From an uncultured Chloroflexia bacterium (GTDB lineage Bacteria; Chloroflexota; Dehalococcoidia; DSTF01; JALHUB01): DNA of 64,000 nt. The stretch covers positions 1,856,001 through 1,920,000 of the forward strand of contig OY969814.1 in NCBI GenBank assembly GCA_963703345.1. Direction: 5' to 3'. This document shows, piece after piece, positions 38,926-63,411 of the stretch (its first letter is position 1; each line of letters starts with the position of its first letter). The position numbers and the translations under genes were made by a program. Under the pieces are notes generated by a model. The model searched no databases and had not been told where the DNA came from. It saw nothing but the letters and a program-made list of their open reading frames with translations.

Positions 38926-39188
38926 CAGACGCAGTTACTCCTTTGATCGCTCTATCTAAGGTTCGGCAAACAAAGCTGCCCGCTAAACGGGTCAGCGGTC
39001 GCCTTTGGCAGACAACCCGCGCGTTCGCCGTGTGGAGAAGGAGCCGTCAGCCGACGCTGCCCATTCCCTCTATTGCGTCGCTGCCACGACGACGCTGGAA
39101 AAGTGTCTTTCGTGGAACCACGAGAGGCGCGGAGGAAGAGCCCTTCGCATTCGGCGGAACGTGTGTAGAGGGCCTGTCTGTGTAGGTA

Positions 39189-39214
39189 TGGTACCCCCGG
39201 CGGGGGTCGAACCC
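39189..39214 (-). repeat. tRNA 3'-end fragment (att-like) at the left edge of the satellite-like element
   Basis: Minus strand GGGTTCGACCCCCGCCGGGGGTACCA = T-loop, acceptor 3' strand and CCA; no 5' half. Confidence 0.55.
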
Positions 39215-39390
39215 ATACTACCTACACGGCAAGCAGGGTGGTTTGCGCCCTCGGAGTTGATTCGAGTGGCGTGATCAGTATCAGGATGCCAGCCATATTG
39301 ACCGACTAGCAGCATAATCTAAGAGCATTCGCCTGGAGCGGCGCAGAGGCTCCCGACAGGCCTGGGAAGGGCCTGTGGAGGACCTTTGTC

Positions 39391-41244
39391 ATGCTCCCAC
39401 AGGTGCAAAACTCCCATGCCAACCCGGTAGTCATCCAAGCGCCTCGGCCCGCAACCCCAGGCCCCGGCGGCGCCACCAAGCCCCCTAACCCGTGTCGCGA
39501 AGACCTTGAGCGCACCCTCCGGCTGTTCGAAGGTGCGGGAATCCCGGTCTTCCCAGCCAGGCGGAGAACCAAGGGCACGTACGTTCCCGGTTGGCCCGAC
39601 ATGACCGTCACGGACGCGCTCTCCTTAACGCGGGCCGAGCTACGCCGCGGCCGCATCAACCTCGCCGGACGGACCGGCAACGGCTGGGCCGTTATCGATC
39701 TCGACGACAAGGACGGGGCCGATCCGGAGGAGATGCTCGCGCTGCTGCTACGGCGACTCGGCTCGGCCGTCTTCGCGGTGGTGCGGACGCGACGGGGCTT
39801 TCACATCTGGGTCCGAGTGCGGGAAGCCGTGCGCAACGGCTACTGCAGCTTCGTCGGTGGCGAGATCTTCTCAGAGCCTCACCTGGCGATGCTCCCACCG
39901 TCTGATCATCCCGAAGGGGGCGAGTACGAGTGGGTTATCGAGCCGCATCACATCGATGCGGTTGCCGACCTTCGAGCCCTCGGGCTGATCCCTGACGTCC
40001 GAGAGCTATGCCAAGGTGCTGCCGGTCGGGAGCAAAACCGAAGGGCCCAGCCTGCAGCACCCGCTGACCAAGAGGAGTTCGAGCAGCTCATGGCACAGGC
40101 CGGCGTCTCCCGCCGGGGCAACCAGATCCAAACGCTGGCGCTCTGTCCCTGGCACCATGATGGCCTTCCTTCCCTCTCGATCAACTGGGAGGCCGCCCTC
40201 TTCTACTGCTTCTCCGTGCACTGCAGCGCTCGTGGTGGGATCGGCAGCCTCCGCCGGCTCGTTCGCTGCGACACCCCAACTTACCGCCAGGGGCGGAACA
40301 ATGCCGGGGGCAATCATCAGCGCCGTGCTGACAACGGGAGGAATCATTTCTCTGGCGATAACCTGGGGTGTGCTGACGTCGATGCTGCCAGCGAGCGGCT
40401 GGCGTCGGGCCTGGAGCAACTGGGCCTGCACCAACGGTCCGGCTCGGTCCGCGACTGCCGACACCATTTCCGCGTAGGCAAGTGCACACAGTGCGCCCGG
40501 ACGCCCGCCTACCCCATCTCCTGCGGCGACCCGCTGTGCCTGCGCTGCATGCCGGGCCGGTTGGCCGCGGACTGGGAGCGCCACAACGCCTCCCTCCCGG
40601 AGAAACTAACCCTGTTGCGTCTGCGGCCCCGTGACCTCTGGGGTATCCCGTCCGATGTTCTCAAGAAGGTGCGTTCCCGGTTCCGGGAGTGGCGGGCCCG
40701 AAGCGGCATCGGCGCCGGCATATACGGAGTTCGCCTCGACAGGACTGCCGGCGCCGTCATCTTGCTGGCAATTCCCGCCCACTTGCCCGTTCCCGAATCG
40801 TCCCTCGCCTTCGAGGTGGAGATAGTGGCGTTGAACCAGGGCCCCCGGGACTTCCTTCGCTGGCTCCAGAGCGAATACGTCCAGGAGGCTCAGGACTGGC
40901 AAACGCCGGATGAGTTGGCGGTCCTGATCGCGGAGACGAAGGGCCGGCGGCGCTTTCAGGGGTTCGGCGCCGTCTACGGTGAAGCTAACGAAAGTTTGGA
41001 CAAGGAGAAGGCGGACATGGTTATGTCAACTGAGGCAGCGGCAACACATAACCGAAAGCCCTTGAGTCGAATCAGCGGTGGAGCCCTCAAGGGCAAGCGT
41101 GAGAAGGCGGAGCACAGCTGCCCCTTCTGTGGCGGCGTCGTCGAATTGTACCCTTTCTCGGTCCCGGCCGACCAGGTGGAACAGGTCGGGGGTCACTGGC
41201 TCTGGCGAGGCCAACGGGCAGCAGCAAGCCATCACCATGAGTGA
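39391..41244 (+). CDS. Prim-Pol + CHC2-type Zn finger + Rep-like fusion protein
   Basis: IPVFP..NLAGRTG..VIDLDD..TRRGFHIW..LPPS (Prim-Pol); CPWHHD..PS..YCFS..C..GG (Zn finger); CxxC..SC..CxxC and GRRRFQGFG (Rep-like). Confidence 0.75.
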   Translation: MLPQVQNSHANPVVIQAPRPATPGPGGATKPPNPCREDLERTLRLFEGAGIPVFPARRRTKGTYVPGWPDMTVTDALSLTRAELRRGRINLAGRTGNGWAVIDLDDKDGADPEEMLALLLRRLGSAVFAVVRTRRGFHIWVRVREAVRNGYCSFVGGEIFSEPHLAMLPPSDHPEGGEYEWVIEPHHIDAVADLRALGLIPDVRELCQGAAGREQNRRAQPAAPADQEEFEQLMAQAGVSRRGNQIQTLALCPWHHDGLPSLSINWEAALFYCFSVHCSARGGIGSLRRLVRCDTPTYRQGRNNAGGNHQRRADNGRNHFSGDNLGCADVDAASERLASGLEQLGLHQRSGSVRDCRHHFRVGKCTQCARTPAYPISCGDPLCLRCMPGRLAADWERHNASLPEKLTLLRLRPRDLWGIPSDVLKKVRSRFREWRARSGIGAGIYGVRLDRTAGAVILLAIPAHLPVPESSLAFEVEIVALNQGPRDFLRWLQSEYVQEAQDWQTPDELAVLIAETKGRRRFQGFGAVYGEANESLDKEKADMVMSTEAAATHNRKPLSRISGGALKGKREKAEHSCPFCGGVVELYPFSVPADQVEQVGGHWLWRGQRAAASHHHE

Positions 41245-41379: not shown

Positions 41380-41862
41380 ATGGCTGGATATAAGGGCAGG
41401 CAGGGGCGAAAGCCCAGGCCCACAAAGCTGAAGCTCTTGGAGGGCAACCCGGGTAAGCGCCGGCTCAATGACAAAGAGCCCGACCCGCCTCCGGCCATTC
41501 CTTCCTGCCCAGAGCATCTGTCCCCCGCAGCGAAGAAGGAATGGGAGCGGGTCACGCCGCTCCTGGAGAAGCTGGGGCTCCTGAGCCAGATAGACGGCGC
41601 GGCGTTGTCACTCTATTGCCAGGCCTGGGGACGTTGGGTGGAGGCGGAGGAAGCACTCAGGACCTACGGCGTCATGGTGAAGAGCCCGAACGGCTTCCCC
41701 ATGCAGTCGCCCTATCTCGCCGTGGCCAACCGGGCGATGGACCAGATCCGGGCGATGCTCACGGAGTTCGGCATGTCACCCTCCAGCCGAAGCCGCGTTT
41801 CCGCTTCCCCCTTGGAGGATGACGACGACTGGCTGGACAAACTCCTGTCGGGAAAGGACTGA
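41380..41862 (+). CDS. Phage terminase small subunit, P27 family
   Basis: GRKPRPTKLKLLEGNPGKR, AKKEW, YCQAW, SPYL, EFGMSPSSRSR. Confidence 0.9.
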   Translation: MAGYKGRQGRKPRPTKLKLLEGNPGKRRLNDKEPDPPPAIPSCPEHLSPAAKKEWERVTPLLEKLGLLSQIDGAALSLYCQAWGRWVEAEEALRTYGVMVKSPNGFPMQSPYLAVANRAMDQIRAMLTEFGMSPSSRSRVSASPLEDDDDWLDKLLSGKD

Positions 41863-42057: not shown

Positions 42058-42537
42058 ATGGGTGAGAGAGGACCGCTGCCCAAGCCCTATACCCGCCGTC
42101 GCAATCGGCGCCAGACGAGCGGCAAGTCAGTCATCGTCTGCCGGCCGGCCATGCCGCGCGACCTCCCGCCAGAGGCGAAGGCCGAGTGGCGGCGGATCAT
42201 CGGGGAATTGGAGACAGCCGGGCTGGTCGCCACCATCGATAGAGCCGTCCTCATTCGCTACTGCACCGCCTGGTCCGACTGGGTAGAGCTGCAGGGACTG
42301 CTGGAGCGTTCGGGCAAGCTGCTTAAAGGGGCACGCGGGCACCTGGTACGCAACCCACTCTGGTTCATGAAGCAGGACGCCGAGCAGACTCTGGCGGAGT
42401 TGGGCCGACAACTGTGCCTGACACCTGTGGCGCGTCTGCGGGCCGGAATCGCGCACGAACGAGAGCCTGAGCATGAGACTCCGGGCTTAACGGCGATTGA
42501 AGAGTACCGGAAGGCGGTGCAAGGAGACAGACGATGA
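42058..42537 (+). CDS. Second, divergent P27-family terminase small subunit
   Basis: MGERGPLPKP, AKAEWRRI, RYCTAW, RNP, QLCLTPVARLR. Confidence 0.85.
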   Translation: MGERGPLPKPYTRRRNRRQTSGKSVIVCRPAMPRDLPPEAKAEWRRIIGELETAGLVATIDRAVLIRYCTAWSDWVELQGLLERSGKLLKGARGHLVRNPLWFMKQDAEQTLAELGRQLCLTPVARLRAGIAHEREPEHETPGLTAIEEYRKAVQGDRR

Positions 42538-43763
42538 CCACCGCGACAGCCACAGTCGAAATCGAGAACGTAGACATTGATTCCCTGCACCCCGACCCGG
42601 CAAACCCGAGGCGCATTGGCAAAGAGGAGTTGGAGGCGCTGACGCGAAGCCTGCGTGAGTTCGGCTTCGTCCAGCCGGTGGTGGCGAGGAAAAGCGACAG
42701 CGTCGTCATCGGCGGCCACCAACGGCTCCTCGCCGCCCGCAAACTCGGCCTGACGACGGTACCGGTGATCTTCCTCGACCTCTCCGTCGAGCAGTCCCGC
42801 CTCCTCAACCTCGCCCTCAATCGCATCTCGGGCGAGTGGGACCAGGAGCTCCTGGCGAGGATGCTTGCCGAACTCAAGCCGGTCGAGGACATCGACCTCA
42901 GCCTCTCCGGTTTCACGGAGGAGGAGTTGGGAAAGCTATTGAAGTCGCTCGACGTGCGGGAGAAGCGCGAGCGGGTGGAGGCGTTCGACCTCGACGCGGC
43001 GTTGGAGGCCGCACAGGCCGCACACGTTGCCCAACGTGGCGATCTGTGGCGGCTGGGGGATCACCGCTTGCTCTGCGGTGACGCGACCGACGTGGGGGAC
43101 GTGTCGCGGTTACTCGGCGAGACAAGGGCGTCTATGGCCTTCACCGATCCGCCCTACAACGTCGGCCTGGGTGACCACGGCGGCCGGCAGCGGGGAAGCC
43201 GCCGGCGGCGCATCACCAACGATGCCCTGTCTCCCGAAGCGTGGGAGGCTTTCGTCCGGGCCTGGGCACAAAACCTCCTTCAGCACGTCGACGGCGCCCT
43301 CTACGTCTGCATGAGCACCAAGGAGTGGCCTCTCGTCTCCCGCGTCCTGGAGGAGGCCGGCGGCCACTGGTCGGACACCATCATCTGGGCGAAGGACCGC
43401 TTCGTCCTCGGCCGCGCCGACTACCAGAGGCAGTACGAGCCGATCTGGTACGGCTGGAGAGAGGGCGCCTCCCACCACTGGTGCGGCGACCGCGACCAGG
43501 GTGACGTCTGGAATATCTCCCGGCCGGCCGACTCCGAGCTCCACCCGACGATGAAGCCGCTGGAGTTGGTCGAGACGGCCCTTTCCAACAGCAGCCGGCC
43601 CGGGGACGCCGTCCTCGACCTCTTCCTCGGCTCCGGCACGACGCTCATCGCCGTGGAACGAACGGGGCGGATCTGCTTCGGCTTGGAGCTGGAGCCGGCG
43701 TACATCGACGTCGCAGTCCGGCGTTGGGAGGCGTTCAGCGGAGAAAGAGCGCAGAAAGAATGA
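42534..43763 (+). CDS. ParB/Srx domain + N4/N6 DNA methyltransferase
   Basis: NPR..FGFVQP..IGGHQR; TDPPYN; HPTMKP; DLFLGSGTT. Confidence 0.92.
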   Translation: MTTATATVEIENVDIDSLHPDPANPRRIGKEELEALTRSLREFGFVQPVVARKSDSVVIGGHQRLLAARKLGLTTVPVIFLDLSVEQSRLLNLALNRISGEWDQELLARMLAELKPVEDIDLSLSGFTEEELGKLLKSLDVREKRERVEAFDLDAALEAAQAAHVAQRGDLWRLGDHRLLCGDATDVGDVSRLLGETRASMAFTDPPYNVGLGDHGGRQRGSRRRRITNDALSPEAWEAFVRAWAQNLLQHVDGALYVCMSTKEWPLVSRVLEEAGGHWSDTIIWAKDRFVLGRADYQRQYEPIWYGWREGASHHWCGDRDQGDVWNISRPADSELHPTMKPLELVETALSNSSRPGDAVLDLFLGSGTTLIAVERTGRICFGLELEPAYIDVAVRRWEAFSGERAQKE

Positions 43764-44153: not shown

Positions 44154-44642
44154 ATGCCCATCGACAACAGGAACCTGGAGGCCGGGACGCGCCTGGCCGC
44201 ACGCTACAAGGGGGCGACCCACACCTGCGAGGTGGTCCAGACCGAGGAGGGACTGCGCTACCGGCTGGCGGACGGCAGAGAGTTCAAGAGCCCCTCCTCG
44301 GCAGCAAGCGCTGTCATGGGCGGGATGGCGGCGAACGGCTGGCGCTTCTGGAGCCTTGCCGAGGAACTCGCGGAGAAGGCGGCAGCTCCCAAGAAGGAGC
44401 GCCAGAGCAAGAAGAACGGCCACGTGGAGCGCTTCCGCTGCCTGCACTGCCAGCGCATCCACAAGACGGAGAAGGCGGCCGCTTCCTGCCGCTGCGCCGG
44501 CGCCAAGGCTGCCCGCGAGAGCGCCGGCAAGAGCGACTACGAGGCGATCATGATCGACCCGATGAACGCGGTCGGCGAGCCGCCCGCACAGCCACAGGCT
44601 GCCGAGGTCGCGGCCCAGCCGGAGGGAGAGCAGGCCGAATAG
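44154..44642 (+). CDS. DUF2924/RAMA-like DNA-binding domain protein
   Basis: GTRLAARYKG..DGREFKSPSSAASAV..ANGWRFW; C-terminal CxxC. Confidence 0.65.
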   Translation: MPIDNRNLEAGTRLAARYKGATHTCEVVQTEEGLRYRLADGREFKSPSSAASAVMGGMAANGWRFWSLAEELAEKAAAPKKERQSKKNGHVERFRCLHCQRIHKTEKAAASCRCAGAKAARESAGKSDYEAIMIDPMNAVGEPPAQPQAAEVAAQPEGEQAE

Positions 44643-46705: not shown

Positions 46706-47041
46706 ATGAGAATGACGCGGATTCAGCGGGAGAAACGGACGGTGAGCGCTATGATAGCGCTGTACTGTCAGGCTCATCATCCAGCAGCCGACACGCCCTG
46801 CGCCGAGTGTCGGACGCTTCAGGACTACGCGCTCGCCCGCCTCGACCGCTGCCCGTTCGCTGACAATAAGCCTACCTGCGCCAGGTGCCCGGTCCACTGC
46901 TATAAACCCGACATGAGAGCGCGGATCAGGGACGTGATGCGCTATGCCGGCCCTCGCATGCTAGCTCGCCATCCTCTGCTCGCGGCGATGCACCAAATCG
47001 ACTCGCTGGGACGAAGCGGCGTGTCGAGGACCAGACACTAA
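46706..47041 (+). CDS. YgbA family (nitrous oxide-stimulated promoter) Cys-rich protein
   Basis: REKRTV..MIALYC..RLDRCP..KPTCARCPVHCY..MRYAGPRM. Confidence 0.88.
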   Translation: MRMTRIQREKRTVSAMIALYCQAHHPAADTPCAECRTLQDYALARLDRCPFADNKPTCARCPVHCYKPDMRARIRDVMRYAGPRMLARHPLLAAMHQIDSLGRSGVSRTRH

Positions 47042-47066
47042 GTCCCCGTCGTGACCGCTATGGAAC

Positions 47067-47103
47067 AATCCGGAGGTCGCTTCGAACCTCTCACAGCCCT
47101 CCA
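47067..47103 (+). repeat. Degenerate tRNA-Lys 3' fragment (site 0)
   Basis: AATCCGGAGGTCGCTTCGAACCTCTCACAGCCCTCCA-GACGGCT aligns to site 2, including its downstream flank. Confidence 0.65.
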
Positions 47104-47457
47104 GACGGCTCTTCTGAATCTGAATTTGGTCTCTCCTGCTTCTACACCTGTGTTCAAAGGCCATGTTTGAGATCTCCAACCCCGCAGGACAGCTCATGGA
47201 ATTGGAGCGATGCCGGGACTACGATATTGACCCCTTAATACTGCACCAGACCACGCCAGGAAAGGCGCCTGAACCACCAGCCGCAATCGCCGCCTACCTC
47301 CGAGACTAGACTGACCTATCCTGTACCTCTTGCGGTCGTATAATATGTCTTACACATGCACGATTCTTCCGATATAACAGCGCTCGGCCGGTAATATATA
47401 TTCCGCAGGATAACCTCTTCTGAGAAAGATAACGATAGTACATACAAAGGAGCTTCA

Positions 47458-48567
47458 ATGATCAAATCGAGACTGTGTGACCTGATCGGAATCAAGTATC
47501 CCATCATCCAGGCAGGGATGGGACCTTTCAGCAACAACAATCTGGCAGTTGCTGCGGCCAACGCGGGCGTCCTGGGGCTGCTTTCCACCAGCGGTGTCTT
47601 TAACAAGGATACCCAGCCCTGGGTTTACAAAGACTTCGTAAACACTGCCGGCGCAGACTACGACGATGACATGCCGACTGTCATCGAAAAGGTGCTGAAA
47701 CGGACCTACAACCTGGTCAAGGACAAGGGCGGCATTTTCGGCATCAACGTGATGGTCTCGGCGGAGGTCCTCGATCGCTCACGCGTCATAGTCAACACAG
47801 CCATAAAGGTGTGTCAGGAGAACCCGGACATCAAGAAGCATTTTAAGGTCATCTTCACGTCAGCCGGTGACCCCATGGGCTGGAAGGACAAGATCAAGGG
47901 AGCGGGGTTCACCTGGATACACGTTGTCCCGTCGGTCAAGGCAGCTTTGCGCTGCAAGAAGGCAGGAGTAGACGTTATCGTAGCTTCCGGCCATGAAGGA
48001 GGTTTCCACATTTCCTGGGAGCCGGTACACTCCATGATCCTGCTTCCCGCGGTGGTGGAAACGGTGTCCGACGAGAATACGCTGGTTGTCGGCGCCGGCG
48101 GGTACTCCGACGGCAAGACCCTCGCGGCTGCGCTCGTCATGGGCGCAGACGGCGCGCAGATGGGCACGCGCTTCCTGGCCACGCAGGAGAGCGACTTCCA
48201 CCAGATCTGGAAGGAAGAAGTTGTGGCCGCCGGTGACAGAGCAACGCTCGTGGCGCGCGGTGTTGTCGGCCCTGCCCGCTGGCTGAAGACGCCCCGCAGT
48301 GTCGAACATGCCGCCAGCACCCTTAAGAAATCGCCGGGCGTCTTCCTCGGCACTCCTGATGACTACAGCACAATGGACATGTCCCTGCTCGATTACGAAA
48401 TTGAATCAATCAAAGCTGTCTTCGAGGGCAACAAGGAAAAGGCGATGATGGCTGCCGGGGAAGTGGCGCAGCGCATCAAGGACATGCCTAAAGTCAACGA
48501 TATGGTGCAGGAGATCGTCACGGAGGCCGAGACCATCCTGAGAAACGTTCCCAAGCTGCTGGCCTAG
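47458..48567 (+). CDS. Nitronate monooxygenase / FabK-like flavoprotein
   Basis: KYPIIQAGMG, SGHEGGFH, AGG..DG, GAQMGTRF. Confidence 0.88.
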   Translation: MIKSRLCDLIGIKYPIIQAGMGPFSNNNLAVAAANAGVLGLLSTSGVFNKDTQPWVYKDFVNTAGADYDDDMPTVIEKVLKRTYNLVKDKGGIFGINVMVSAEVLDRSRVIVNTAIKVCQENPDIKKHFKVIFTSAGDPMGWKDKIKGAGFTWIHVVPSVKAALRCKKAGVDVIVASGHEGGFHISWEPVHSMILLPAVVETVSDENTLVVGAGGYSDGKTLAAALVMGADGAQMGTRFLATQESDFHQIWKEEVVAAGDRATLVARGVVGPARWLKTPRSVEHAASTLKKSPGVFLGTPDDYSTMDMSLLDYEIESIKAVFEGNKEKAMMAAGEVAQRIKDMPKVNDMVQEIVTEAETILRNVPKLLA

Positions 48568-48594
48568 CCTGTCAAGCCAGGTTGTCCTGGTAGA

Positions 48595-48624
48595 AAAAAG
48601 CCGGCGGCCTGTGCCGCCGGCTTT
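48595..48624. terminator. Intrinsic (bidirectional) terminator
   Basis: AAAAAAGCCGGCGGC-ctgt-GCCGCCGGCTTT. Confidence 0.75.
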
Positions 48625-48661
48625 ATTGAAAGACAAGACCGCCATCGTGGCCGGGGGTGGC

Positions 48662-48851
48662 TTGCCTGGGCATCCCGGACCACTTAGAATCCTCTCGTCA
48701 GATGCCACGCGGGCAAGGCCGCGGGATTCGGCCTCGTTGAGCACCATCTGACCCTTCCCCAAGATTCGGCGGGCAGCGCTGAGTGCGGGCCGAACGGCTC
48801 GCGGACTTTTAATCCGGGAGTCGAGGGTTCGAATCCCTCACGGCCCTCCCA
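48662..48851 (+). repeat. Site 1: promoter + structured arm + tRNA-Lys(UUU) 3' half
   Basis: TTGCCT-17-TAGAAT; GTCAGATG/CATCTGAC and TTCGGC/GCCGAA helices; CGGA-CTTTTAA-TCCGG; GAGGG-TTCGAAT-CCCTC; ACGGCCC. Confidence 0.85.
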
Positions 48852-49044
48852 GCCGTCGCAGCCGTCGCATTCGTCGTCATCGTCAAGCGCGCGTGCGCCG
48901 ACCGGGGAATGCCTCTCAAGTTCGGCCAGCCCGTTCACGCGAGCATCCCCACACGATAGCCAGAACCGACCCTGAGACCCAGCCTCCGCACTCATGCGCG
49001 GTCGATTGGCCTCAAATCTGCGCGGTTCGCGGCCTACCCGGGCG

Positions 49045-52000
49045 CTACGCGGCCCGCCGTCTTCTAACGTACCAGAGACCAGCACCGACAGTGATCGCGC
49101 CTACTGCTCCCGCAGCCATTTCCGCCCAAGGGACGTAATCGGTTGCCGAAGAAGGTTCTGTTGCTTCAGGCGACCCCGGCGCTATATCCGGTGGCTCCGC
49201 AATCCCCCCGACAGCGCCGGAAACGCGCACGGGTGTGGGGGTAGGCGTCGGGGTGGGTGTTGGCACTGAGCCTGCACAAGTCCGCTGGTACCGTCCGGAA
49301 ACGAACTGCAGATCCTTGATGTCGATGTCATAGTCACCGGTCGCCGGCTCAAGGTCAAACCAGATGTTGTACGGCCACTGGCCAAGGCTCGAGCCGTAGC
49401 GCCCGGACCCCGCTTGCTCGTCTATCACGTTGACCTGGCAATCCTTGTTTACGTCGCCTTCCAGCGCCCGCACAAGAATGGTCGACCCGCTGACCTGATC
49501 GATGAGAATGGGATTCCGCAGCACGTCGCTCAGTTCCGCGCCACTCTGGGTGACGTTGGTCAGCATCCCGTTGCCCAACGTCGGCCGAATCGTCACAGTG
49601 GGTGTAAGCGTCAGATAGGCGAGCACGCCCGGCCCTGTGGGCCCCGGCTGACTACCCGTGGATGTGCAAGCTATACTAAGCGAGCTCTCCGTCTGGTCCT
49701 GCCGGCATTGCGTCTGGCGCCCGGTGCTGGCCAGGAACGGGCCTTCGCTCGCGCTAGCGCTGACGACATTCCTATCGTAATAGACTGTGAATTCAAAGCC
49801 ACCGACCTGAGTGCCCGCCGGCACGTTGGCGACCTCATCGGCCAACACGAGCTTCCCTTCACCGTCATGCGTGCAATCTGTCGGGCCCCCGCTGCACTGC
49901 CACAAGTTTGCGCTGCTCGGACTTATCGACAGAACGATTGGGTCCGCCGCCGTCGCAGCGGAAGGAGTCTGGACACGGGCGGCCAAGACAAGCCATAAGC
50001 CGAACACGCCCGTGACAGTGAGAGCGAATGCCGCCGGTATGCGAACCCGCCCCCTTCGCCTGACGACGGCGCCGCTGAGCGCGGCGCGACAACCGCGGAG
50101 CAGTTGTCTGAATCCCCGTTCCGCGCGCATCATCGCGTCCTTCGCAAGAACGATTTCATTCGAACCAGCGCCTCTTGGCTGTTTCGGAGCGCGCCCCTTA
50201 ATCCGTTTCTTGCTTCTCTTACGCCCGGTCGGACGCACCAGAAGTCCGGCCATTCCCGTTAGCAACACGGCAACGGCTGCGTATCGGGGCGCCACCTTCG
50301 ACGCGGGGGGAACCGACCCTGTGGCGGATACGGAAACTGATCCCCCTGCAGCCTTAGCGCTGATAGTGTTGCCGAAAGGATCGGCGAGCGCGTACGCGGG
50401 GAGGTCGAGCGAGCTTGTCCCCAGCGCCAGCGCTCGGAAAGTGATCTCCGCCAGAAGGCCGGTTCCGCTGGCGCCCGGCGCGCTACCGCTGCTTACGCAA
50501 CCGAAGCGGACCTGCCTATCGCTCACCGTCGGGGTTGGGCAGAACACGCCACGTCTGGTGCTGCCGAGAAAAGTCCCATTGCTTATGCCCGAGAGTATCA
50601 GGATATTCGGGTCGAATTGGACCGTAAAGTCGTATGCGGCGACGTTCGAGACGTCACGCGCCATCACGTCCACCACGAAGTAGTCGCCCACCCTCACGGA
50701 CTGTGAGGGCGGATCGATCAGGACAGCCGGAACATTAGGAGCGAGTGTTGGCGTCGGAGTAGGCGGCTCGTTGCCGGCCGTCGCCGTGCTCGTCGGCGTT
50801 TGACTGGGCCCGGGCGTGTACGTCTCCGTCGGAAGAGGCGTGTCCGTCGGCGTCGGCGCCGGTCCAATCGTTACGGACGCCTGTCCACCGATGCTGACCG
50901 CAATGGTTCCTGCCATTGGATTGGTCAGAATGGCCTTCTCTACGGTGACCTGCGTGTCTCCAGTCTGGAGCGGGACGAAAGTGAGAATGGACAGGACGCC
51001 GCTGCCGCTTGCCCCTGCCGGTTCGGGCCCGAGCGTGAGGCAGACCGTACGTACTTTGGTGCCAAAGATATCCGGGGGCAGACAGCTTGGACCCCGGCCG
51101 CTGCTACCCAGGAAAGGACCGTTCTTCACGCTTGCGACCTGGAGAAACGCTGGATCGAAGTCGAGCGTCAACTCATATGCTCCAAGGTCTGTTACGCCGT
51201 CCACCGTGGCATTGACGCTAAACGGAACGCTTACATTTGCTTGCTGCCAAGCCGGCGCCACGCTGATCGTGACCGCGCCGCCCACCGGTGTGTTAGTCGG
51301 CGTTGGCGCGGCCGGCCCCGGCGTCCAGGTTGCCCTTGGCGTGAGTGTCGCCGTCGGCGTTGGGCTCGGCCCGACCGTGAAAGTCGCCGTGGGCGGGACC
51401 GTCTCCGTCGCCGTTGGTGTATCGGTCGGTGTAGGCGACGGCCCGTAAGTCGGCGTCGGCGCCGGCTGGACAACGACCGATGCGCCGAGGAGCGCATCCG
51501 TCGGAATGACAGTGGCCTGAATGTCTGTCAGGACGAAGTCGCTCAGATTCATCAGGCCGATGCCTTCGCGGATGGCGGAAAAAGTGATTGTCGCAAGCAC
51601 GCCGTTGCCGTCGGGACCGGGAGGATGCGTGCCCAACGTGCGACAGACAAGCCGCACCGAGTTGCCCGTCGGACTCGGAGTCGCAGCGTCACAGCTCACA
51701 CTGCGCCCCGTGCTCCCGAGGAAAGGGCCGTACTTAGCGCCGACGAACGAAGCGATAACCGGATCGAACTGAATGCTTGCCTGGAAGGCGCCAAGATCGG
51801 CCACGTTGTTGACCATAAGGTCGATGCTAAAATCGCTGCCGTTAAACGCCGTCTGCCCCGCCGGACGAAGGCAAGCGACCACGCCCGCAGGTGCGCCTTC
51901 GCACGTCGGGCCCGGCGTTGGCGACGGCGTGGGCACGACAGGGGTTGACGTCGGCCGCGGCGTCGGAAAGCCGATAGTGACTTGCCCATTTTCCGCCACC

Positions 52001-52476
52001 ACCGGTATGTCATTGGCCAAGGGATCGCTCAGAAAGGTGGGATCGATGAAATCCAGAGGGCTCACTCCTTCGACGAGAGCGTTGAAAGTCATCGTCGCGA
52101 CCTCACCAGAGCCGTCAACGCCAACTAGCCCATCGAACGAATAACAACCGAATGTCACTTTCCCCAGGGTCGTGTTCACGATAGCGTTGGGACATTCCAC
52201 GGTTCGTCCGCTGCTTCCCAGGAACGGTCCCTCCGTTGCCGTCTGGAAGGCAACCAGGCTCGGGTCAAACTGGAGGGTGAACTCGAAAGAGCCCAGGTTG
52301 GAGACATCGTCCAGCATCACATTGACGCTGAACGAATCCCCTGCGCTCACGTTTTGAGTAGACGGGTCGAGGCGGACGACGGCCTGTTGGGCGGAAACGA
52401 AGCTGAAGTGGTAAGCCAGGAACAGGGCGCCTGCCATCAGCGCCACGCCGAGAAGAATGCCGCGCCATGCCTTCAT
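49045..52476 (-). CDS. Multi-cohesin/dockerin surface protein with PT linkers and TM anchors
   Basis: Signal peptide; five repeats of ..F.V....V..LG.F.F.L.FDP..GPFLGS.GR..C..C..G.G.LA; dockerin-like GDVNKDCQVNVID; C-terminal TM + RRRR. Confidence 0.82.
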   Translation of the reverse strand: MKAWRGILLGVALMAGALFLAYHFSFVSAQQAVVRLDPSTQNVSAGDSFSVNVMLDDVSNLGSFEFTLQFDPSLVAFQTATEGPFLGSSGRTVECPNAIVNTTLGKVTFGCYSFDGLVGVDGSGEVATMTFNALVEGVSPLDFIDPTFLSDPLANDIPVVAENGQVTIGFPTPRPTSTPVVPTPSPTPGPTCEGAPAGVVACLRPAGQTAFNGSDFSIDLMVNNVADLGAFQASIQFDPVIASFVGAKYGPFLGSTGRSVSCDAATPSPTGNSVRLVCRTLGTHPPGPDGNGVLATITFSAIREGIGLMNLSDFVLTDIQATVIPTDALLGASVVVQPAPTPTYGPSPTPTDTPTATETVPPTATFTVGPSPTPTATLTPRATWTPGPAAPTPTNTPVGGAVTISVAPAWQQANVSVPFSVNATVDGVTDLGAYELTLDFDPAFLQVASVKNGPFLGSSGRGPSCLPPDIFGTKVRTVCLTLGPEPAGASGSGVLSILTFVPLQTGDTQVTVEKAILTNPMAGTIAVSIGGQASVTIGPAPTPTDTPLPTETYTPGPSQTPTSTATAGNEPPTPTPTLAPNVPAVLIDPPSQSVRVGDYFVVDVMARDVSNVAAYDFTVQFDPNILILSGISNGTFLGSTRRGVFCPTPTVSDRQVRFGCVSSGSAPGASGTGLLAEITFRALALGTSSLDLPAYALADPFGNTISAKAAGGSVSVSATGSVPPASKVAPRYAAVAVLLTGMAGLLVRPTGRKRSKKRIKGRAPKQPRGAGSNEIVLAKDAMMRAERGFRQLLRGCRAALSGAVVRRRGRVRIPAAFALTVTGVFGLWLVLAARVQTPSAATAADPIVLSISPSSANLWQCSGGPTDCTHDGEGKLVLADEVANVPAGTQVGGFEFTVYYDRNVVSASASEGPFLASTGRQTQCRQDQTESSLSIACTSTGSQPGPTGPGVLAYLTLTPTVTIRPTLGNGMLTNVTQSGAELSDVLRNPILIDQVSGSTILVRALEGDVNKDCQVNVIDEQAGSGRYGSSLGQWPYNIWFDLEPATGDYDIDIKDLQFVSGRYQRTCAGSVPTPTPTPTPTPVRVSGAVGGIAEPPDIAPGSPEATEPSSATDYVPWAEMAAGAVGAITVGAGLWYVRRRRAA

Positions 52477-52551
52477 AACTAATATTACGGGTGCCACCGC
52501 CGGGGCCACCTTCTTCCGTATAGAGTCCTGCCGCCGCTCCTCGCTAGAGAG

Positions 52552-52700
52552 AAAAGCAAAGAAGCCAACCAGCGATGCGCTGGTCGGCTTCCCTTCCGGC
52601 TTGTCTGGAGACGCTTCTCCGGGCCCGTGCCGACAGCCCAGCCACCATGGCTGTCGCAGCCCCTTCTCGCGACTATTCGTCCATGCCCATAGGGGAGAGG
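52552..52700 (-). promoter_or_regulatory. Structured 5' leader with intrinsic terminator (candidate riboswitch/attenuator)
   Basis: Minus strand hairpins CGACAGCC/GGCTGTCG and GGAGA/TCTCC, then GAAGCCGACCAGCG-cat-CGCTGGTTGGCTTC-TTTGCTTTT before the start codon. Confidence 0.6.
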
Positions 52701-52761
52701 AGCAGTCGCGCAGTTCTATACTGTCAGCAGCAGGATTGTCTTGTCAAGACCCCTCTAGGCC

Positions 52762-52871
52762 CACCATCTGACCCTCCCCCAAGATTCGGTGAGCAGCGCC
52801 CGAGTGCGGGCCGAACGGCTCGCGGACTTTTAATCCGGGAGTCGAGGGTTCGAATCCCTCACGGCCCTCCA
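52762..52871 (+). repeat. Site 2: 5'-truncated arm + tRNA-Lys 3' half ending TCCA
   Basis: Near-identical to site 1 from CACCATCTGAC onward. Confidence 0.85.
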
Positions 52872-53079
52872 GACGGCTTTTTTCAGATTCGATTTCCGCT
52901 CTCAAGGGCTGCTTGTTCTTCGCCTAACCCATGATTTGTCGCCTCGGCCAACCCAACCTGACCACCGGACTTGAAGTTTATGAGCCTAAAGACTGAGAGC
53001 CCTTGGCATTCGAGAGCTCTCCCGCAGATACGATTGCCGCGTCTGCAGGCCCCCTCCTCTTCGCCCGCCTCTCCCGGTT

Positions 53080-53134
53080 GAGCACCGGATTCCAAGTCCG
53101 GGAGTCGAGGGTTCGAACCCCTCACGGCCCTCCA
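53080..53134 (+). repeat. Site 3: tRNA-Lys-type 3' part with altered anticodon loop (TTCCAAG)
   Basis: GAGCA-CCGGA-TTCCAAG-TCCGG-GAGTC-GAGGGTTCGAACCCCTC-ACGGCCC-TCCA. Confidence 0.8.
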
Positions 53135-53263
53135 GAGCCCTCTTTCAGATTCGAAATCCGCCTTTCGCCCTGAAAGGCTTTCCGTGCACACAGCGGAGTT
53201 TTGGTGTAGCATCTCGGCATCGTCCGTCTGTGGGTCGTACCACTAGTTCGACAGGGGGTCAAC

Positions 53264-54595
53264 ATGCCATCGAGAAGAAAGCTCTGCCGGATGGCGCTGA
53301 GCGTGACATTCATCGCCATCGTCTTTTCGCTCACGGCCTGTGGCGGGAACGGGTCGTCCAAGCCGAGCGCGGAAGGGACGCCTGACACGACGGGTGTTAC
53401 CGACACCGAGATAACCCTAGGTACCCACTACCCCCTCAGCGGCAACCCGGCCGCCGCCTACGCAGTCATCGCCTACGGAATGAAGGCATTCTTCAACTAT
53501 ATCAATGCTCAGGGCGGCGTCTATGGCCGAAAGATCAACTTTATCATCGCCGATGACCACTACAACCCCCCTGACACGGTCGAGGTCGTCCACCAGCTCG
53601 TGGAGCAGGACCACGTCTTTGGCATCATCAGCGGTCTGGGCGAAGAGACGCACCTGGCTGTCTACAAGTACCTGGAGGAACGGGGCATTCCGGACATGTA
53701 TCTCTCCACCGGCCTCGTAGCGTGGTCTGACCCCGTTGCGCACAGCCGGTTCGCCGGAAACCCGAACTACATCATTGATGGCACTTTCCTCGGCAATTAC
53801 ATTGCAAAGACCTACCCCAATGGTAAGCTGGGCATCCTTGAGCAAAACGACGCGTTGGGCCAGGAAGGGGAAAAGGGGCTGCGGCAGGGGCTGGAAGGCA
53901 GCAACGTTGAGATTGCGGATGTGGAGAAGTATGAAGCGAGCGCTAACGACGTCTCTGCCCAGACCCAGCGGCTGAAAGCCAGCGGTGTGGATGTGCTGGC
54001 TGCGTTTGCGATGCCGGGCCAGGGCGCCAGCCTCGTGAAGACGGCGCACGAAACGCTGAACTGGAAGGTTCCTATCGCAGTAAGCGCAATCGATGTGAGC
54101 GATATTTTCATTCTGCTGGCCGGTGCTCAGAATGCGGAGGGCGTAGTAAGCGACACCTTCGGCATGCAGGTATACGACACTGAAGATCCGGGCATCCAGA
54201 AATACATGAAGATATGGGACAAGTTCCACAACGGCGTCACCGGGCCCCTGACGGACCTAGAGGAGTATGGCATGTCCAGGGCGGAGGACGTGGTATGGGA
54301 CCTCGAGATGGCCGGGAAGGACCTCTCGCGCCAGTCCTTCCTTGACGCCGCCGAAAAGATGTGCCGCGTGGACTGCTCCGTGTGCGCTCCTTGGAGCCTT
54401 GAATCCACCAGCCCGACGGACCACAAGGTATCCGAGACGCTGATCCTCAACACAGTGGTGAACGGCAAGTGGCAGACATCGGGCGACCCAGTTAGCTATG
54501 AGTCGACGAAAGAGTGCACACCGGCGACACCTCCTGACGGCTTTGATCAACAGCCGAAGCTGGGGAAGGACGCGGCCTACGTGGAGACTCCTTAG
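53264..54595 (+). CDS. ABC transporter substrate-binding lipoprotein (LivJ-like, Peripla_BP_6)
   Basis: LTAC lipobox; GVTDTEI.LG..PLSG; INAQGGVYGRKI..DD.YNP; no permease genes adjacent. Confidence 0.88.
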   Translation: MPSRRKLCRMALSVTFIAIVFSLTACGGNGSSKPSAEGTPDTTGVTDTEITLGTHYPLSGNPAAAYAVIAYGMKAFFNYINAQGGVYGRKINFIIADDHYNPPDTVEVVHQLVEQDHVFGIISGLGEETHLAVYKYLEERGIPDMYLSTGLVAWSDPVAHSRFAGNPNYIIDGTFLGNYIAKTYPNGKLGILEQNDALGQEGEKGLRQGLEGSNVEIADVEKYEASANDVSAQTQRLKASGVDVLAAFAMPGQGASLVKTAHETLNWKVPIAVSAIDVSDIFILLAGAQNAEGVVSDTFGMQVYDTEDPGIQKYMKIWDKFHNGVTGPLTDLEEYGMSRAEDVVWDLEMAGKDLSRQSFLDAAEKMCRVDCSVCAPWSLESTSPTDHKVSETLILNTVVNGKWQTSGDPVSYESTKECTPATPPDGFDQQPKLGKDAAYVETP

Positions 54596-54626
54596 AGGCT
54601 CTAGGCTCGACAATGAGGGGGCGAGC

Positions 54627-54759
54627 TAGAATCCGGTCGTCAGGTGCCACGCGGGCAAGACGGCGGGATTCGACCTCGCAGAGCGCCATCTGACCCTTCC
54701 CACAGATTCGGCGAGCGGTGCCGGATACGGGCCGAACGGTGAACGGACTTTTAATCCGG
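54627..54759 (+). repeat. Site 4: full structured arm ending at the anticodon stem-loop, no T-arm
   Basis: TAGAAT..GTCAGGTGCCACGCGGGCAAG..CATCTGACCCTTCCC..TTCGGC..GCCGAACGG..CGGACTTTTAATCCGG, then unrelated sequence. Confidence 0.85.
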
Positions 54760-55083
54760 CCGTCAGAGAGCGAATAAGTGATCATGCCCTTTCAACGCAC
54801 ACCATGCGTGCATCGTGTGCGGCGTTCGTGGGAACTGGTTGCCTTACCAAGCAGAGGGCCGCGGCCTCGAGTCCCCGTTTCCCGCTCGAAGTTCTCCTTT
54901 CCGGTCACACCCCTTCGGCGGCCGCGTACGGCTGGGCCAGAGGCGCACTTGGGCAGCCTGAGCGGTGGAGTCGGCTGGGGGTCTCGCCGGCCTGCGGTCG
55001 TCGGGAGCTAATAGGAACCTGTCCTCTTGACATCGTTAGCAAACGCAGTAATATTGCGTCATCCGGAGCTACGGGTGGCTACG

Positions 55084-61853: not shown

Positions 61854-62054
61854 GCGGCGCGGTGGCCGCCCGGCCTGAGCAACGGGGTATCGGTCAGCAA
61901 GGCCTTGCCGGGACCGCACACTATTCGTCCATCGTGATGGTGACGGGCGCCCGTCGTGCACCAGCAACCGAACAAGCGATCCTCACGCCTCATTCGTCGG
62001 TTGGTGCGGTAGGCGGGGCGACGTCAACTAAGCTCAGCGCGGAAGGAGGCCGCC

Positions 62055-63275
62055 ATGCAGACCACTGATGTCTTCCTAACAGACCAGGACCGGCTCGTCC
62101 GTTCGGTAATGCGAGACTTTGTCGAACGGGAGGTCATGCCGGTCCGCCAGCAGATCGACGACGACAAGGACCACGTGGTTGTGCGCCGCCTACTCCAGGG
62201 ACTCTTCGGACTCGGCCTGATGCGCGCGGGCCTGCCCCAGGAATACGGAGGGATGGCGGCTGGCGGCGGCGGCGCGAGCAATGTCACCACCTGCCTTGTG
62301 CTGGAGGAGATATCGAGGGGTGATTGCGGCATCGCCGTTGCGGCCAGCGTAACCACCTGGGCCCTGATACCGGCGATAAGGGCGGGCAACGAGACCGTCC
62401 TGAAGCTGATGGGCGAGATGTTCGGCGGAAGTGAGCTCCGGCTGGGCTGCTTCGCCATGACCGAGCCCGCCAGTGGCTGCGACATCGAGAACCTGGCGGC
62501 ACTGCACGGCCGCCCGATTCAGACCAGGGCGGTCTTGGACGGGGATGAATGGGTCATCAACGGGGGGAAGCGCTTCCCCAGCAACGCCGGCGTCGCCGAC
62601 ATCTATTGCACTGTCTGCCAGACAGATCCCGACCTCGGCGAAGAGGGCATCGCTCTTATCTACGTACCCTCGCCGTGGGAGGGGCTGTCCTTCGGCAAGT
62701 TCGAGAGCAAGGCAGGGATGCAGGCAGACCGCAATTGCGACATCTACTTCGACAACGTGCGAGTTCCAAGGCGGTACCGCGCCGCCGGCCCGGGTGAAGA
62801 TGCCCGCCTCATGAAGCGAAACCTGACACTCGGGCGCGGCGCCAGCGCGGCGATGGCTGTGGGCAACGCCCGCGGCGCCTTCGACCGCGTCCTCGACTAC
62901 ACTGGGTCGCGAGTGGTCGAGGGACGTCCGATCCGTCAGCATTCAATGTGCGCCGGCATGCTTGCCGATATGGCGATCGGGATCGAGACGGCGCGGGCGT
63001 ACTATTTGCAGACCGCCTACATGCTCGACCGTCCGGAAGAATACGGGCAGCCGGACTCCGACGAGATGCTGTCAAGGGCCAGCCTGGCTAAGGTCCACGC
63101 CTGCGATGTCGCCGTAATGGTGGCGAACCGCGCTATGGAGTTGATGGGCTCGTATGGCTACATGCGCGAGTTCGACCTAGAGAAATACTGGCGCGACGGC
63201 AAGGAGATCCAGTTGTGGCTGGGCGGCGCGCAACTCGCCAGGCTGGATGTCGCGCGGGGCTATTACGAGCCCTAG
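62055..63275 (+). CDS. Acyl-CoA dehydrogenase
   Basis: FAMTEPASGCD, WVINGGKRFPSN, GSYGYMRE..EKYWRD. Confidence 0.93.
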   Translation: MQTTDVFLTDQDRLVRSVMRDFVEREVMPVRQQIDDDKDHVVVRRLLQGLFGLGLMRAGLPQEYGGMAAGGGGASNVTTCLVLEEISRGDCGIAVAASVTTWALIPAIRAGNETVLKLMGEMFGGSELRLGCFAMTEPASGCDIENLAALHGRPIQTRAVLDGDEWVINGGKRFPSNAGVADIYCTVCQTDPDLGEEGIALIYVPSPWEGLSFGKFESKAGMQADRNCDIYFDNVRVPRRYRAAGPGEDARLMKRNLTLGRGASAAMAVGNARGAFDRVLDYTGSRVVEGRPIRQHSMCAGMLADMAIGIETARAYYLQTAYMLDRPEEYGQPDSDEMLSRASLAKVHACDVAVMVANRAMELMGSYGYMREFDLEKYWRDGKEIQLWLGGAQLARLDVARGYYEP

Positions 63276-63359
63276 CTGGCCCGCCTCGCTTAGCAGACAC
63301 TAAGGGAAGATTGTGTTGGGCCGGCGCTCCCTTTGGGTTCTCTATATTCCTCCAACAAG

Positions 63360-63411
63360 CTTCTGATTTACACCCAGAAGGGCGCAGGTTCGAGCCCTGC
63401 ATCGCCCACCA
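63360..63411 (+). repeat. tRNA-Val(UAC) 3' fragment (att-like)
   Basis: TTTACAC loop; GCAGG-TTCGAGC-CCTGC; ATCGCCC-ACCA; no 5' half or D-arm upstream. Confidence 0.75.

What the first reader, a model, noticed from the sequence alone, without database searches (positions are those of the whole stretch)
47067..54759. Integrase-free cassette array delimited by five tRNA-Lys-derived sites (candidate integron-like system)
Seen: five direct-orientation sites related to the tRNA-Lys(UUU) 3' half, at 47067 (degenerate), 48802, 52823, 53085 and 54744. They separate unrelated single genes (nitronate monooxygenase | cohesin-dockerin protein | ~210-bp spacer | orphan ABC binding protein). Similarity to the tRNA begins at the symmetric anticodon stem-loop CGGA-CTTTTAA-TCCG. 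Sites 1, 2 and 4 share a non-tRNA upstream arm. Sites 0, 2 and 3 share a downstream flank (..TCCAGA..CT.T(T)TCAGATTCGA-like). No intact tRNA-Lys and no integrase lie in the window. Known: tyrosine integrases often cross over in the 7-nt anticodon loop, and tandem integration leaves attP-like junctions. Inference: these are non-autonomous gene cassettes carrying attP-like arms, inserted and shuffled by an integrase acting in trans.
Basis: partly seen in the sequence, partly recalled or inferred. Interest (0 to 1): 0.85.

Follow-up and report, generated by a model that had tools for sequence, protein, structure and literature searches.

The report
Stripped-down mobile elements stacked as cassettes
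Five junctions derived from a lysine tRNA gene divide four small DNA units that carry no integrase; their ends match a larger mobile element found in related bacteria, so they are likely its stripped-down leftovers, which likely still move between genomes when an intact helper element is present.

Summary
The five sites are real. They are attachment-site junctions of an integrative mobilisable element (IME) family of Dehalococcoidia that targets the tRNA-Lys(UUU) anticodon loop. A same-genus genome (G003) holds an intact-looking ~25-kb parent: Xer-like integrase, MobC-type relaxase, rep-like gene, same arms. This genome lacks that integrase (closest 42%) and relaxase. The units fit cis-mobilisable elements (CIMEs): one still carries the tail of the parent's rep gene, one is an empty micro-CIME. 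This is not an integron (no IntI, no attC hairpin). The array is not at the tRNA but in a secondary slot of a 47-kb satellite-like island; relatives fill that slot with other cargo. Units of this family are shared between distant genomes at 94-97% identity against 75-86% for neighbouring core genes, and appear in different positions. The least expected point: tRNA ends are fused to nearly the same spot of the rep gene in at least four independent events, suggesting a recurrent route from IME to cassette. No circle, empty slot or activity was shown. The scan reported CIME-like tRNA arrays before on other DNA (9 findings) and this genome's tRNA-Val family. Verdict: new variant of a known kind.

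The parts
39149..39215 (-). Far end (attR) of the 47.3-kb carrier island; direct repeat of the tRNA-Arg(CCG) 3' end and flank (other end at C1:1942384-1942450, beyond the window)
   Evidence: 88% over 67 nt
39391..41244 (+). Carrier island: prim-pol protein
   Evidence: PF09250
41380..42537 (+). Carrier island: two terminase small subunit genes (41380-41862, 42058-42537)
   Evidence: PF05119; TIGR01558 above cut-off
42534..43763 (+). Carrier island: ParB-domain DNA methyltransferase, followed by a RAMA-domain gene (44154-44642)
   Evidence: 85% and 78% identical to genes beside the same slot in G008
47036..47053 (+). Left 18-bp palindrome of the cargo slot (one mismatch to the consensus)
47067..47124 (+). 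Site 0: attL-like junction at a secondary (non-tRNA) target; right half-site, decayed tRNA-Lys 3' half, and stub of the integrase-proximal arm of the parent element (motif at 47116-47124)
47458..48567 (+). Unit 1 cargo: nitronate monooxygenase / FabK-like flavoenzyme; found near tRNA-Lys in 8 related genomes
   Evidence: PF03060
48685..48850 (+). Site 1: full P arm (core-like motifs at 48688, 48724, 48762), core 48802-48817, tRNA-Lys 3' half
48864..48959 (+). 3' tail of the parent element's rep-like HTH_36 gene, fused to the tRNA end; followed by a decayed copy of a conserved downstream block (hairpin motif at 48986-49001)
   Evidence: 81% nt to the G007 gene; 74% aa, E 1.5e-8
49045..52509 (-). 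Unit 2 cargo: cohesin-domain repeat protein; its 5' 2.1 kb is 91% identical to this genome's own chromosomal paralogue (C1:670836-672964)
   Evidence: PF00963
52762..52871 (+). Site 2: truncated P arm (only the -50 motif, one extra base), core 52823-52838, tRNA-Lys 3' half
52872..53083 (+). Unit 3: gene-free micro-unit; integrase-proximal arm of a second element subfamily joined to a third arm type
   Evidence: 68-71% to flanks in the main tRNA-Lys array and 93% over 27 nt to the leader of the G010 integrase
53084..53154 (+). Site 3: core with variant loop, tRNA-Lys 3' half, stub of the second-subfamily arm
53264..54595 (+). Unit 4 cargo: orphan ABC substrate-binding protein (branched-chain amino-acid type)
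   Evidence: PF13458; paralogues in 18 of 18 family genomes, best 84%
54627..54759 (+). Site 4: attR-like junction; full P arm and core, then non-tRNA slot sequence
54800..54817 (+). Right 18-bp palindrome of the cargo slot
54843..54887 (+). Decayed tRNA-Gly(CCC) 3' half directly behind the slot
   Evidence: 89%; same junction in metagenome locus L223
63358..63411 (+). First site of a second, tRNA-Val(UAC)-type array inside the same island (continues at C1:1920558 and 1921862)

Best explanation
The five sites are attachment junctions that match the ends of a tRNA-targeting integrative mobilisable element found in related Dehalococcoidia, and the four units between them are likely deletion derivatives of such elements (CIMEs and one micro-CIME) that lost integrase and transfer genes but kept an att arm and cargo. 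Shown: the parent family, its arms, the remnants in the units, the absence of a close integrase and of a relaxase in this genome, variable content and position in relatives, and recent sharing between distant genomes. Inferred: (1) the arm-less Xer-like integrase binds the core half-sites and three core-like motifs in the P arm and crosses over in the anticodon loop; (2) backbone loss, often running from the tRNA end to the rep-gene tail, leaves arm plus cargo; (3) units accrete in tandem, and chromosomal genes beside the att site are captured; (4) a visiting intact element excises with neighbouring units, carries them to a new cell and later excises alone; (5) here the block entered a secondary site in a satellite-like island, which may be a second vehicle. 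In this genome the array is likely dormant until a helper arrives.
For: G003 has a 349-aa integrase directly behind intact tRNA-Lys, with XRE, Replic_Relax, an NTPase/coupling-like gene, AAA and HTH_36, ending ~25 kb away in the same arm. The family occurs in 14 of 93 order genomes; 12 of 16 loci have a tRNA beside the gene (Lys 4, Arg-UCU 5, Leu-UAA 2, Gly-UCC 1). 13 of 15 of their leaders begin with the motif seen after site 0. 15 arm copies from 7 genomes align without gaps; the motifs at -124, -88 and -50 are present in 14, 14 and 15 of 15; 6 of 8 junctions from other families show at least two of them in phase or shifted by about 10 nt; motif columns are 99% conserved against 88% elsewhere. 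The catalytic R-K-H-x-x-R-H-Y set is intact and there is no N-terminal arm-binding domain. Rep-gene tail in unit 2. Closest integrase in G000 is 42%; no relaxase or coupling protein by tblastn, no PF19044. Catalase-peroxidase unit 97.3% between G006 (first slot at tRNA-Lys) and G008 (island slot) against 78% for core genes; three-gene unit 94% across genera against 75%; hydrogenase unit 96% against 86%. The right end of unit 1 has six different downstream neighbours. Size classes match the CIME and microCIME classes of PMC7563491.
Against: No circle, excision product or empty slot was found. Only one same-genus genome of 8 has the Lys integrase, and G003's arm copy is only 82% identical to site 1. 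Many integrase-free units sit in the first slot at the intact tRNA with no helper beside them, whereas streptococcal CIMEs in composite islands are always farthest from the target. The tight convergence of deletion ends is not what random decay predicts. Site 2's arm is truncated and site 3's loop differs, so some junctions may be dead. Metagenome junctions across a 165-nt repeat can be assembly chimeras. The PF13814 search of G000 had no positive control.
Confidence: 0.68

Rival explanations
1. A working cassette system rather than decay: the IME family regularly spawns minimal cassettes by a programmed event at the rep-gene tail (for example relaxase or Rep nicking), and single cassettes are excised as circles, shuffled and inserted in trans at tRNA arrays and at the island slot, giving an integron-like function built from attP-type sites.
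For: 34 of 88 scanned tRNA-Lys ends are fused to the rep tail, with 16 distinct junction strings. The tails match three rep alleles that are only 62-66% alike, and the same fusion occurs at a tRNA-Gly(UCC) site in G008, so at least four independent events. A conserved hairpin block follows the tail in many units. The 19 units seen whole in metagenomes are 0.3-3.9 kb. Two shared units change order in the tRNA-Val arrays of G003 and G007 at 92-95% identity. One 5.3-kb cargo lies at Pro, Gly and Lys sites in three genomes at 92-94%.
Against: Left ends of the same cargo differ between genomes (flavoenzyme leader 352, ~125 or 43 nt; Fur lost in G006), which is erosion, not precise cassette ends. 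At least 8 tail-bearing loci listed lack the hairpin block. No resident cognate integrase. Most shared Val units keep their order, as polar accretion predicts. The metagenome loci are redundant and short, which favours small units. No circles seen.
Confidence: 0.22
2. Inert scars: the junctions are no longer used by any integrase; units are reshuffled and exchanged by ordinary homologous recombination between the 135-165-nt repeats and by transfer of whole islands.
For: Arm copies are 76-95% identical and long enough for RecA (the RecA argument is established knowledge). Sites 0, 2 and 3 are damaged; other arms in relatives are truncated or have insertions in the T-loop. No helper in G000.
Against: Gap-free spacing and selective conservation of the motifs. 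Shared units stop at the core or the tRNA end. The same arm joins tRNA and non-tRNA targets at the same core position. Intact relatives of the parent are present in 14 of 93 genomes.
Confidence: 0.1

Closest known systems
CIMEs and microCIMEs formed by accretion-mobilisation (Streptococcus ICESt1/ICESt3, S. salivarius, S. agalactiae tRNA-Lys; PMC5704250, PMC7563491)
   Same: Units flanked by att sites, without integrase or transfer genes, derived by deletion from IMEs, stacked in tandem; cargo units 1.7-4.0 kb (published 1.2-13 kb) and a gene-free unit of ~210 nt (published 130-220 bp); metabolic cargo; parent with a PF13814/MobC relaxase as in IME_Class_8 (PMC5357655).
   Different: Four units in a row with no helper in the genome; array at a secondary site inside another island; units often in the first slot at the tRNA; Xer-like tyrosine integrase without an arm-binding domain (Class 8 has a serine integrase); recurrent fusion at the rep tail; several tRNA families interleaved. 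Mobilisation is untested here.
Integrons (IntI, attI, attC cassettes; PMC8618304)
   Same: Tandem array of mostly single-gene, integrase-free units with variable content and order; in some relatives the first gene starts 43 nt behind the tRNA end, which could place it under the tRNA promoter.
   Different: No IntI, no attC hairpin, no adjacent recombinase; sites are double-stranded attP-type arms plus a tRNA half; units arise from decayed elements and have eroded ends.
Tycheposons and Prochlorococcus tRNA islands (bioRxiv 10.1101/2020.12.28.424599); PICI-like satellites
   Same: Partial tRNA repeats inside islands, transient integrase-carrying elements leaving material behind; the carrier island has a recombinase at a tRNA, prim-pol and small terminase and no capsid gene among the ORFs scanned.
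   Different: The paper's PICI-like tycheposons were never seen with extra cargo; this carrier has about 35 kb of it, including two att arrays. The Lys parent is relaxase-bearing. Membership was not tested with tycheposon profiles.
Dehalococcoides ssrA genomic islands (DsiB module; PMC3146451)
   Same: Same class of host; tandem islands marked by short direct repeats; large serine recombinase whose 3' end overlaps the target gene; ParB-domain and methylase genes; proposed to mobilise adjacent tandem islands.
   Different: Target is tRNA-Arg(CCG) here and tRNA-Pro(UGG) in G008, not ssrA; has prim-pol and terminase small subunits; the Lys array uses a tyrosine-integrase site, not the serine recombinase's.

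Membership tests
CIME / microCIME | Flanked by attL- and attR-type sites | tested here: met
   sites 0, 2 and 3 are damaged
CIME / microCIME | No integrase, relaxase, coupling protein or T4SS gene in the unit | tested here: met
CIME / microCIME | Derived from an ICE or IME by deletion | tested here: met
   rep-gene tail in unit 2; parent arm stubs at sites 0, 2, 3; for units 1 and 4 only arm stubs support this
CIME / microCIME | Transfers only by accretion with a helper (cis-mobilisation) | not testable with these tools
   Tandems of an intact-looking element and integrase-free units seen in G003 and G008; transfer inferred from identity
Integron | IntI-type integrase | tested here: not met
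   TIGR02249: 52 bits for the cognate integrase and 37-68 bits for four other recombinases scanned, cut-off 265; XerC/XerD-like genes at C1:1415367 and 2091430 and the broken gene at 1469227 were not scanned
Integron | attC sites folding into a conserved single-strand hairpin | tested here: not met
   six folds of four arm copies, z from -2.07 to +0.49, no shared long hairpin
Integron | attI next to the integrase gene, with a cassette promoter | tested here: not met
   no recombinase within 28 kb of the array; promoter function untested (one search is a pattern scan only)
Integron | Free circular cassettes | tested here: inconclusive
   only contigs could be laid; they drop rare forms
IME (the parent element) | Own integrase and att ends | tested here: met
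   G003, G033, G008 elements
IME (the parent element) | Relaxase, with or without coupling protein | tested here: met
   PF13814 in G003, G033, G042; TrwB-like hit in G033; homologues in two G008 elements
IME (the parent element) | No VirB4/T4SS (otherwise an ICE) | tested here: inconclusive
   the two G008 elements are only ~10 kb; the ~25-kb elements were only partly annotated and not searched for VirB4
PICI-like phage satellite (the carrier island) | Integrase at a tRNA, primase, terminase small subunit, no full virion module | tested here: met
   several island ORFs have no family hit
PICI-like phage satellite (the carrier island) | Induction and packaging by a helper phage | not testable with these tools
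   three IMG/VR contigs carry related modules; the Lys arm was not found in IMG/VR

The most novel reading that the evidence does not exclude
Dehalococcoidia run a genome-wide cassette network: a MobC-type IME family with swappable tRNA-specific integrases sheds its backbone at a fixed point in the rep gene, producing 1-4-kb att-bounded cassettes that capture host genes, are shuffled in trans among tRNA-Lys, -Val, -Gly and -Pro arrays, and are loaded into a dedicated slot on a phage-satellite-like island for transfer: an integron equivalent built from attP arms, with a defined way of making new cassettes.
Probability: 0.2. Interest if true: 0.82.

Novelty: new variant of a known kind. Interest (0 to 1): 0.5.

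Why it matters
CIMEs are thought to be very common but have been studied almost only in streptococci, and usually without a traceable route of formation. Here parent, remnants and horizontally shared products can be lined up in one lineage, including hydrogenase, catalase-peroxidase and efflux cargo. How integron cassettes are first made is, to my knowledge (recalled, no call), an open question; a recurrent IME-to-cassette fusion point would give a directly testable model of cassette birth in an analogous system. The Xer-like integrase that appears to use core-like accessory sites and to tolerate different loop sequences is a compact recombinase worth assaying. If the units prove to be ordinary decay products, the finding is a well-documented further example of a known process.

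Tried and rejected
Integron reading: rejected. Structured RNA or intact tRNA: nothing over an Rfam cut-off in 38000-64000. Island-borne tyrosine recombinase (C1:1938662) as the cognate enzyme: only 25% identical to the Lys integrase, present in 35 of 93 genomes in varied contexts, not tied to the arm; not excluded. Empty slot: a pattern built from both slot flanks gave 7 one-mismatch hits in 93 genomes against 16 for the reversed control; the one inspected lay in an open reading frame. Circles: one apparent head-to-tail junction (L175) diverged after ~350 nt and is another neighbour; joints are explained by other arm copies or other arrangements. Arm in viral contigs: 0 matches. No RNA holder listed. 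Second-subfamily integrase (G010) found only in G010 of 93 at E<=1e-95, so the link between it and the flanks of sites 2 and 3 rests on one genome. Microhomology as the cause of the rep-tail fusion: short similarities exist but do not predict the junction lengths; unresolved. No integrase was found beside tRNA-Val in the 23 loci screened, so the Val helper is unknown. Literature searches for this system in Dehalococcoidia or for tRNA-based integron-like arrays returned nothing matching; a search for arm-less integrases returned nothing useful. Gene calls outside the window come from my own codon-model caller and can miss or misplace genes.


Full report
Observation. The five sites are at the stated coordinates in direct orientation. 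The 16-nt core occurs 4 times within 3 mismatches in the window against 0.34 expected; 0 of 100 shuffles reached 4. The window lies at C1:1856001-1920000 of a 2.28-Mb single-contig genome; record titles of the closest integrase relatives read Dehalococcoidia or Chloroflexia. The intact tRNA-Lys(UUU) is 1.3 Mb away. Sites 1 and 2 carry loop and 3' half, site 3 a variant loop, site 0 only the right half-site and a decayed half, site 4 only the core. Cargo: flavoenzyme PF03060, cohesin-repeat protein with no dockerin hit, a 212-nt gene-free stretch, and a PF13458 binding protein.

Setting. The array lies inside a 47.3-kb island bounded by tRNA-Arg(CCG) and a 67-nt repeat at window 39149-39215. 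The island has a large serine recombinase overlapping the tRNA, a tyrosine recombinase, a type III restriction system, prim-pol, two terminase small subunits and a ParB-methyltransferase; no capsid family was hit among the ORFs scanned. The genome holds 53 tRNA- or tmRNA-derived fragments outside called genes, 13 of Lys(UUU) type, 11 Val(UAC), 10 Gly(CCC), 5 Pro(GGG). The intact tRNA-Lys has its own array of five sites, with efflux, hydrogenase and gene-free units and no integrase.

The parent. Seven of 8 same-genus genomes hold a near-full copy of the arm and the eighth a truncated one. G003 has a 349-aa tyrosine integrase directly behind tRNA-Lys, then XRE, Replic_Relax, an NTPase, AAA and an HTH_36 rep-like gene, and the arm ~25 kb later. 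Relatives at E<=1e-70 occur in 14 of 93 order genomes, 1 of 8 in the genus, not in G000. Twelve of the 16 loci have a tRNA next to the gene: Lys(UUU) 4, Arg(UCU) 5, Leu(UAA) 2, Gly(UCC) 1; three more follow a tRNA-half junction. Thirteen of 15 leaders start with the motif that follows site 0. G033, from another family, has the same layout with a 70% identical arm at the far end. G008 has two ~10-kb elements with the same backbone and other integrases at two tRNA-Gly genes, so the integrase module is exchangeable. The integrase has an intact catalytic set, matches Xer models from residue 23-29, and its model shows core-binding and catalytic domains only, with XerA as best structural match. In G000 the closest enzyme is the tRNA-Pro integrase at 42%; relaxase, coupling protein and PF19044 were not found (one search had no positive control).

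Arm anatomy. Fifteen arm copies from 7 genomes align without gaps and are 76-95% identical; three motifs that resemble the core half-sites sit at -124, -88 and -50 in 14, 14 and 15 of 15 copies, with 99% column conservation against 88% elsewhere. Six of 8 junctions from other families show at least two of them in phase or shifted by about one helical turn. I infer that the arm-less integrase binds these as accessory sites; this is untested. At secondary targets, and in Arg-loop/Lys-half hybrids, the loop sequence stays with the arm and the exchange lies at the right edge of the loop, which suggests tolerance of loop mismatches; few independent events support this.

Units are decay products. 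Directly after site 1 lie the last ~30 codons of the rep-like gene (81% nt to G007; 74% aa, E 1.5e-8). Site 0 keeps a stub of the parent's integrase-proximal arm; sites 2 and 3 keep the arm of a second subfamily known from one genome, G010. Unit 3 is that arm joined to another arm with nothing between. The cohesin gene's 5' 2.1 kb is 91% identical to the genome's own paralogue and 66-71% to other species, consistent with recent capture from a close relative. The flavoenzyme gene lies near tRNA-Lys in 8 relatives, behind the last site in G002, G003 and G006, first at the tRNA in G007, and without internal sites in G010; its leader is cut back to different lengths.

Units move. The catalase-peroxidase unit is first at tRNA-Lys in G006 and fills the island slot in G008, at 97.3% over 2588 nt ending at the core, against 78% for core genes beside the tRNA. 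A three-gene unit is 94% identical across genera over the 1541 nt held, against 75%. The hydrogenase unit is 96% identical over the 9006 nt held between G000 and another locus of G003, against 86%. The flavoenzyme gene itself is only modestly above core identity (81-93% against 76-87%), which is weak. A metagenome scan found 98 stretches with the arm; in the 93 loci read, 19 units were seen whole, 0.3-3.9 kb, median 1.4 kb, with redundancy; none held the Lys integrase, but most contigs are too short to show a large element. The right end of unit 1 has six different downstream neighbours, three of them in separate genomes (G000, G004, G005). In the tRNA-Val arrays two shared units swap order between G003 and G007 at 92-95%, while most shared units keep their order. 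Short-read junctions across these repeats can be chimeric.

The slot. G008 has a related island at tRNA-Pro(UGG) with another serine recombinase, the same flanks and different cargo; L191/L211 and L223 hold further cargoes. The flanks include an 18-bp palindrome found at 9 places in G000 (0 in 2 simulated genomes) and in 11 of 18 family genomes; left and right forms also bracket genes without Lys sites. An empty slot was not found. Three IMG/VR contigs carry related prim-pol/terminase/methylase modules, but the arm itself was not found there, so the satellite route is a possibility only.

The unexpected part. In 34 of 88 scanned junctions (redundant samples) the tRNA end is fused to the rep tail, with 16 distinct junction strings, 7 of them 4-7 nt before the same motif. 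The tails match three rep alleles that are 62-66% alike, and G008 shows the same fusion at tRNA-Gly(UCC): at least four independent events. A conserved block with a short hairpin follows in many but not all units. A deletion hot spot with selection for cargo, or nicking at a transfer or replication origin, could explain this; I could not decide.

Comparison. PMC5704250 and PMC7563491 (passages read) define CIMEs as deletion derivatives of ICEs/IMEs that keep att sites and move by accretion, with sizes of 1.2-13 kb and gene-free microCIMEs of 130-220 bp; the window fits this, with mobilisation untested. PMC5357655 (passages) equates PF13814 with MobC relaxases of IMEs. PMC8618304 (passages) gives the integron criteria, which fail here. 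The tycheposon preprint (passages) and PMC3146451 (passages) describe partial-tRNA islands, material left by transient elements, and a serine recombinase overlapping its target. No supplements were read; they may list comparable arrays. Searches found no description of this family; subscription papers are not covered. Earlier scan notes report CIME-like tRNA arrays in 9 other findings and this genome's Val family; my reading was recorded before I saw them. The unpublished genome G045 enters only the tallies; no specific claim rests on it.

Verdict. Observation confirmed; interpretation partly supported. It works like a CIME array (0.68), may be a more deliberate cassette system (0.22), and is not an integron. 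New variant of a known kind; interest 0.5.

Noticed in passing
window 63358-63411 and C1:1920558, 1921862; main array C1:1252833-1259685: tRNA-Val(UAC) arrays of ~1-kb single-gene units with a separate conserved arm; matches in 15 of 18 family genomes, no adjacent integrase found, one order swap between G003 and G007.
   Followed up: partly
window 47036-47053 and 54800-54817: An 18-bp palindrome pair brackets the array and, elsewhere, single genes without Lys sites; all 7 family genomes with the island tyrosine recombinase have it against 4 of 11 without (p 0.01, kin not independent). Possibly the ends of a further element type.
   Followed up: partly
metagenome loci such as L151, L170, L173, L182; L027 and L043: Displaced tRNA-Lys halves often carry a 20-45-nt GC-rich hairpin inserted in the T-loop, in several variants.
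   Followed up: no
window 48850-48868: A 9-nt tandem duplication right after site 1 is absent from related contigs in four runs.
   Followed up: no
C1:1028430-1028851 and 1034258-1034553; 1096377-1096671: Back-to-back tRNA halves of different type (Gly with Pro, Pro with Arg) separated by about 200 nt, as if one arm region serves two cores.
   Followed up: no
C1:1028936-1033952; L361:4148-9536; L057:794-6086: The same 5.3-kb CoA-activase cargo sits between Pro/Gly sites in G000, in a Gly(UCC) array in G008 and beside a Lys site in G002, at 92-94% identity.
   Followed up: partly
C1:570101-586632: A 16.5-kb NiFe-hydrogenase/heterodisulfide-reductase-like cluster is one Lys-bounded unit and lies at another locus in G003.
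   Followed up: partly
C1:1311212-1312410, 656395, 235849: A split rep-like gene with a duplicated tail near tRNA-Pro(UGG), and stray copies of the downstream hairpin block, one beside an orphan arm at 658328.
   Followed up: partly
C1:1940989-1942488: The island's serine recombinase frame runs 65 nt into tRNA-Arg(CCG) on the opposite strand, as described for DsiB and ssrA.
   Followed up: no
C1:1810855-1811088; 182284; 1589460; 1147895; 2125136: Three spaced copies of the tRNA-Asn 5' end, and single duplicates of tRNA-Sec, tmRNA, tRNA-Ser and tRNA-Thr ends marking further islands.
   Followed up: no
window 62028-63286; L207: The acyl-CoA dehydrogenase gene before the Val site is 94% identical to one that follows the flavoenzyme unit's site directly in a metagenome contig.
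   Followed up: no
window 148-1266 and 34855-35976: Two GT4 glycosyltransferase genes of almost equal length and domain profile; not compared with each other.
   Followed up: no
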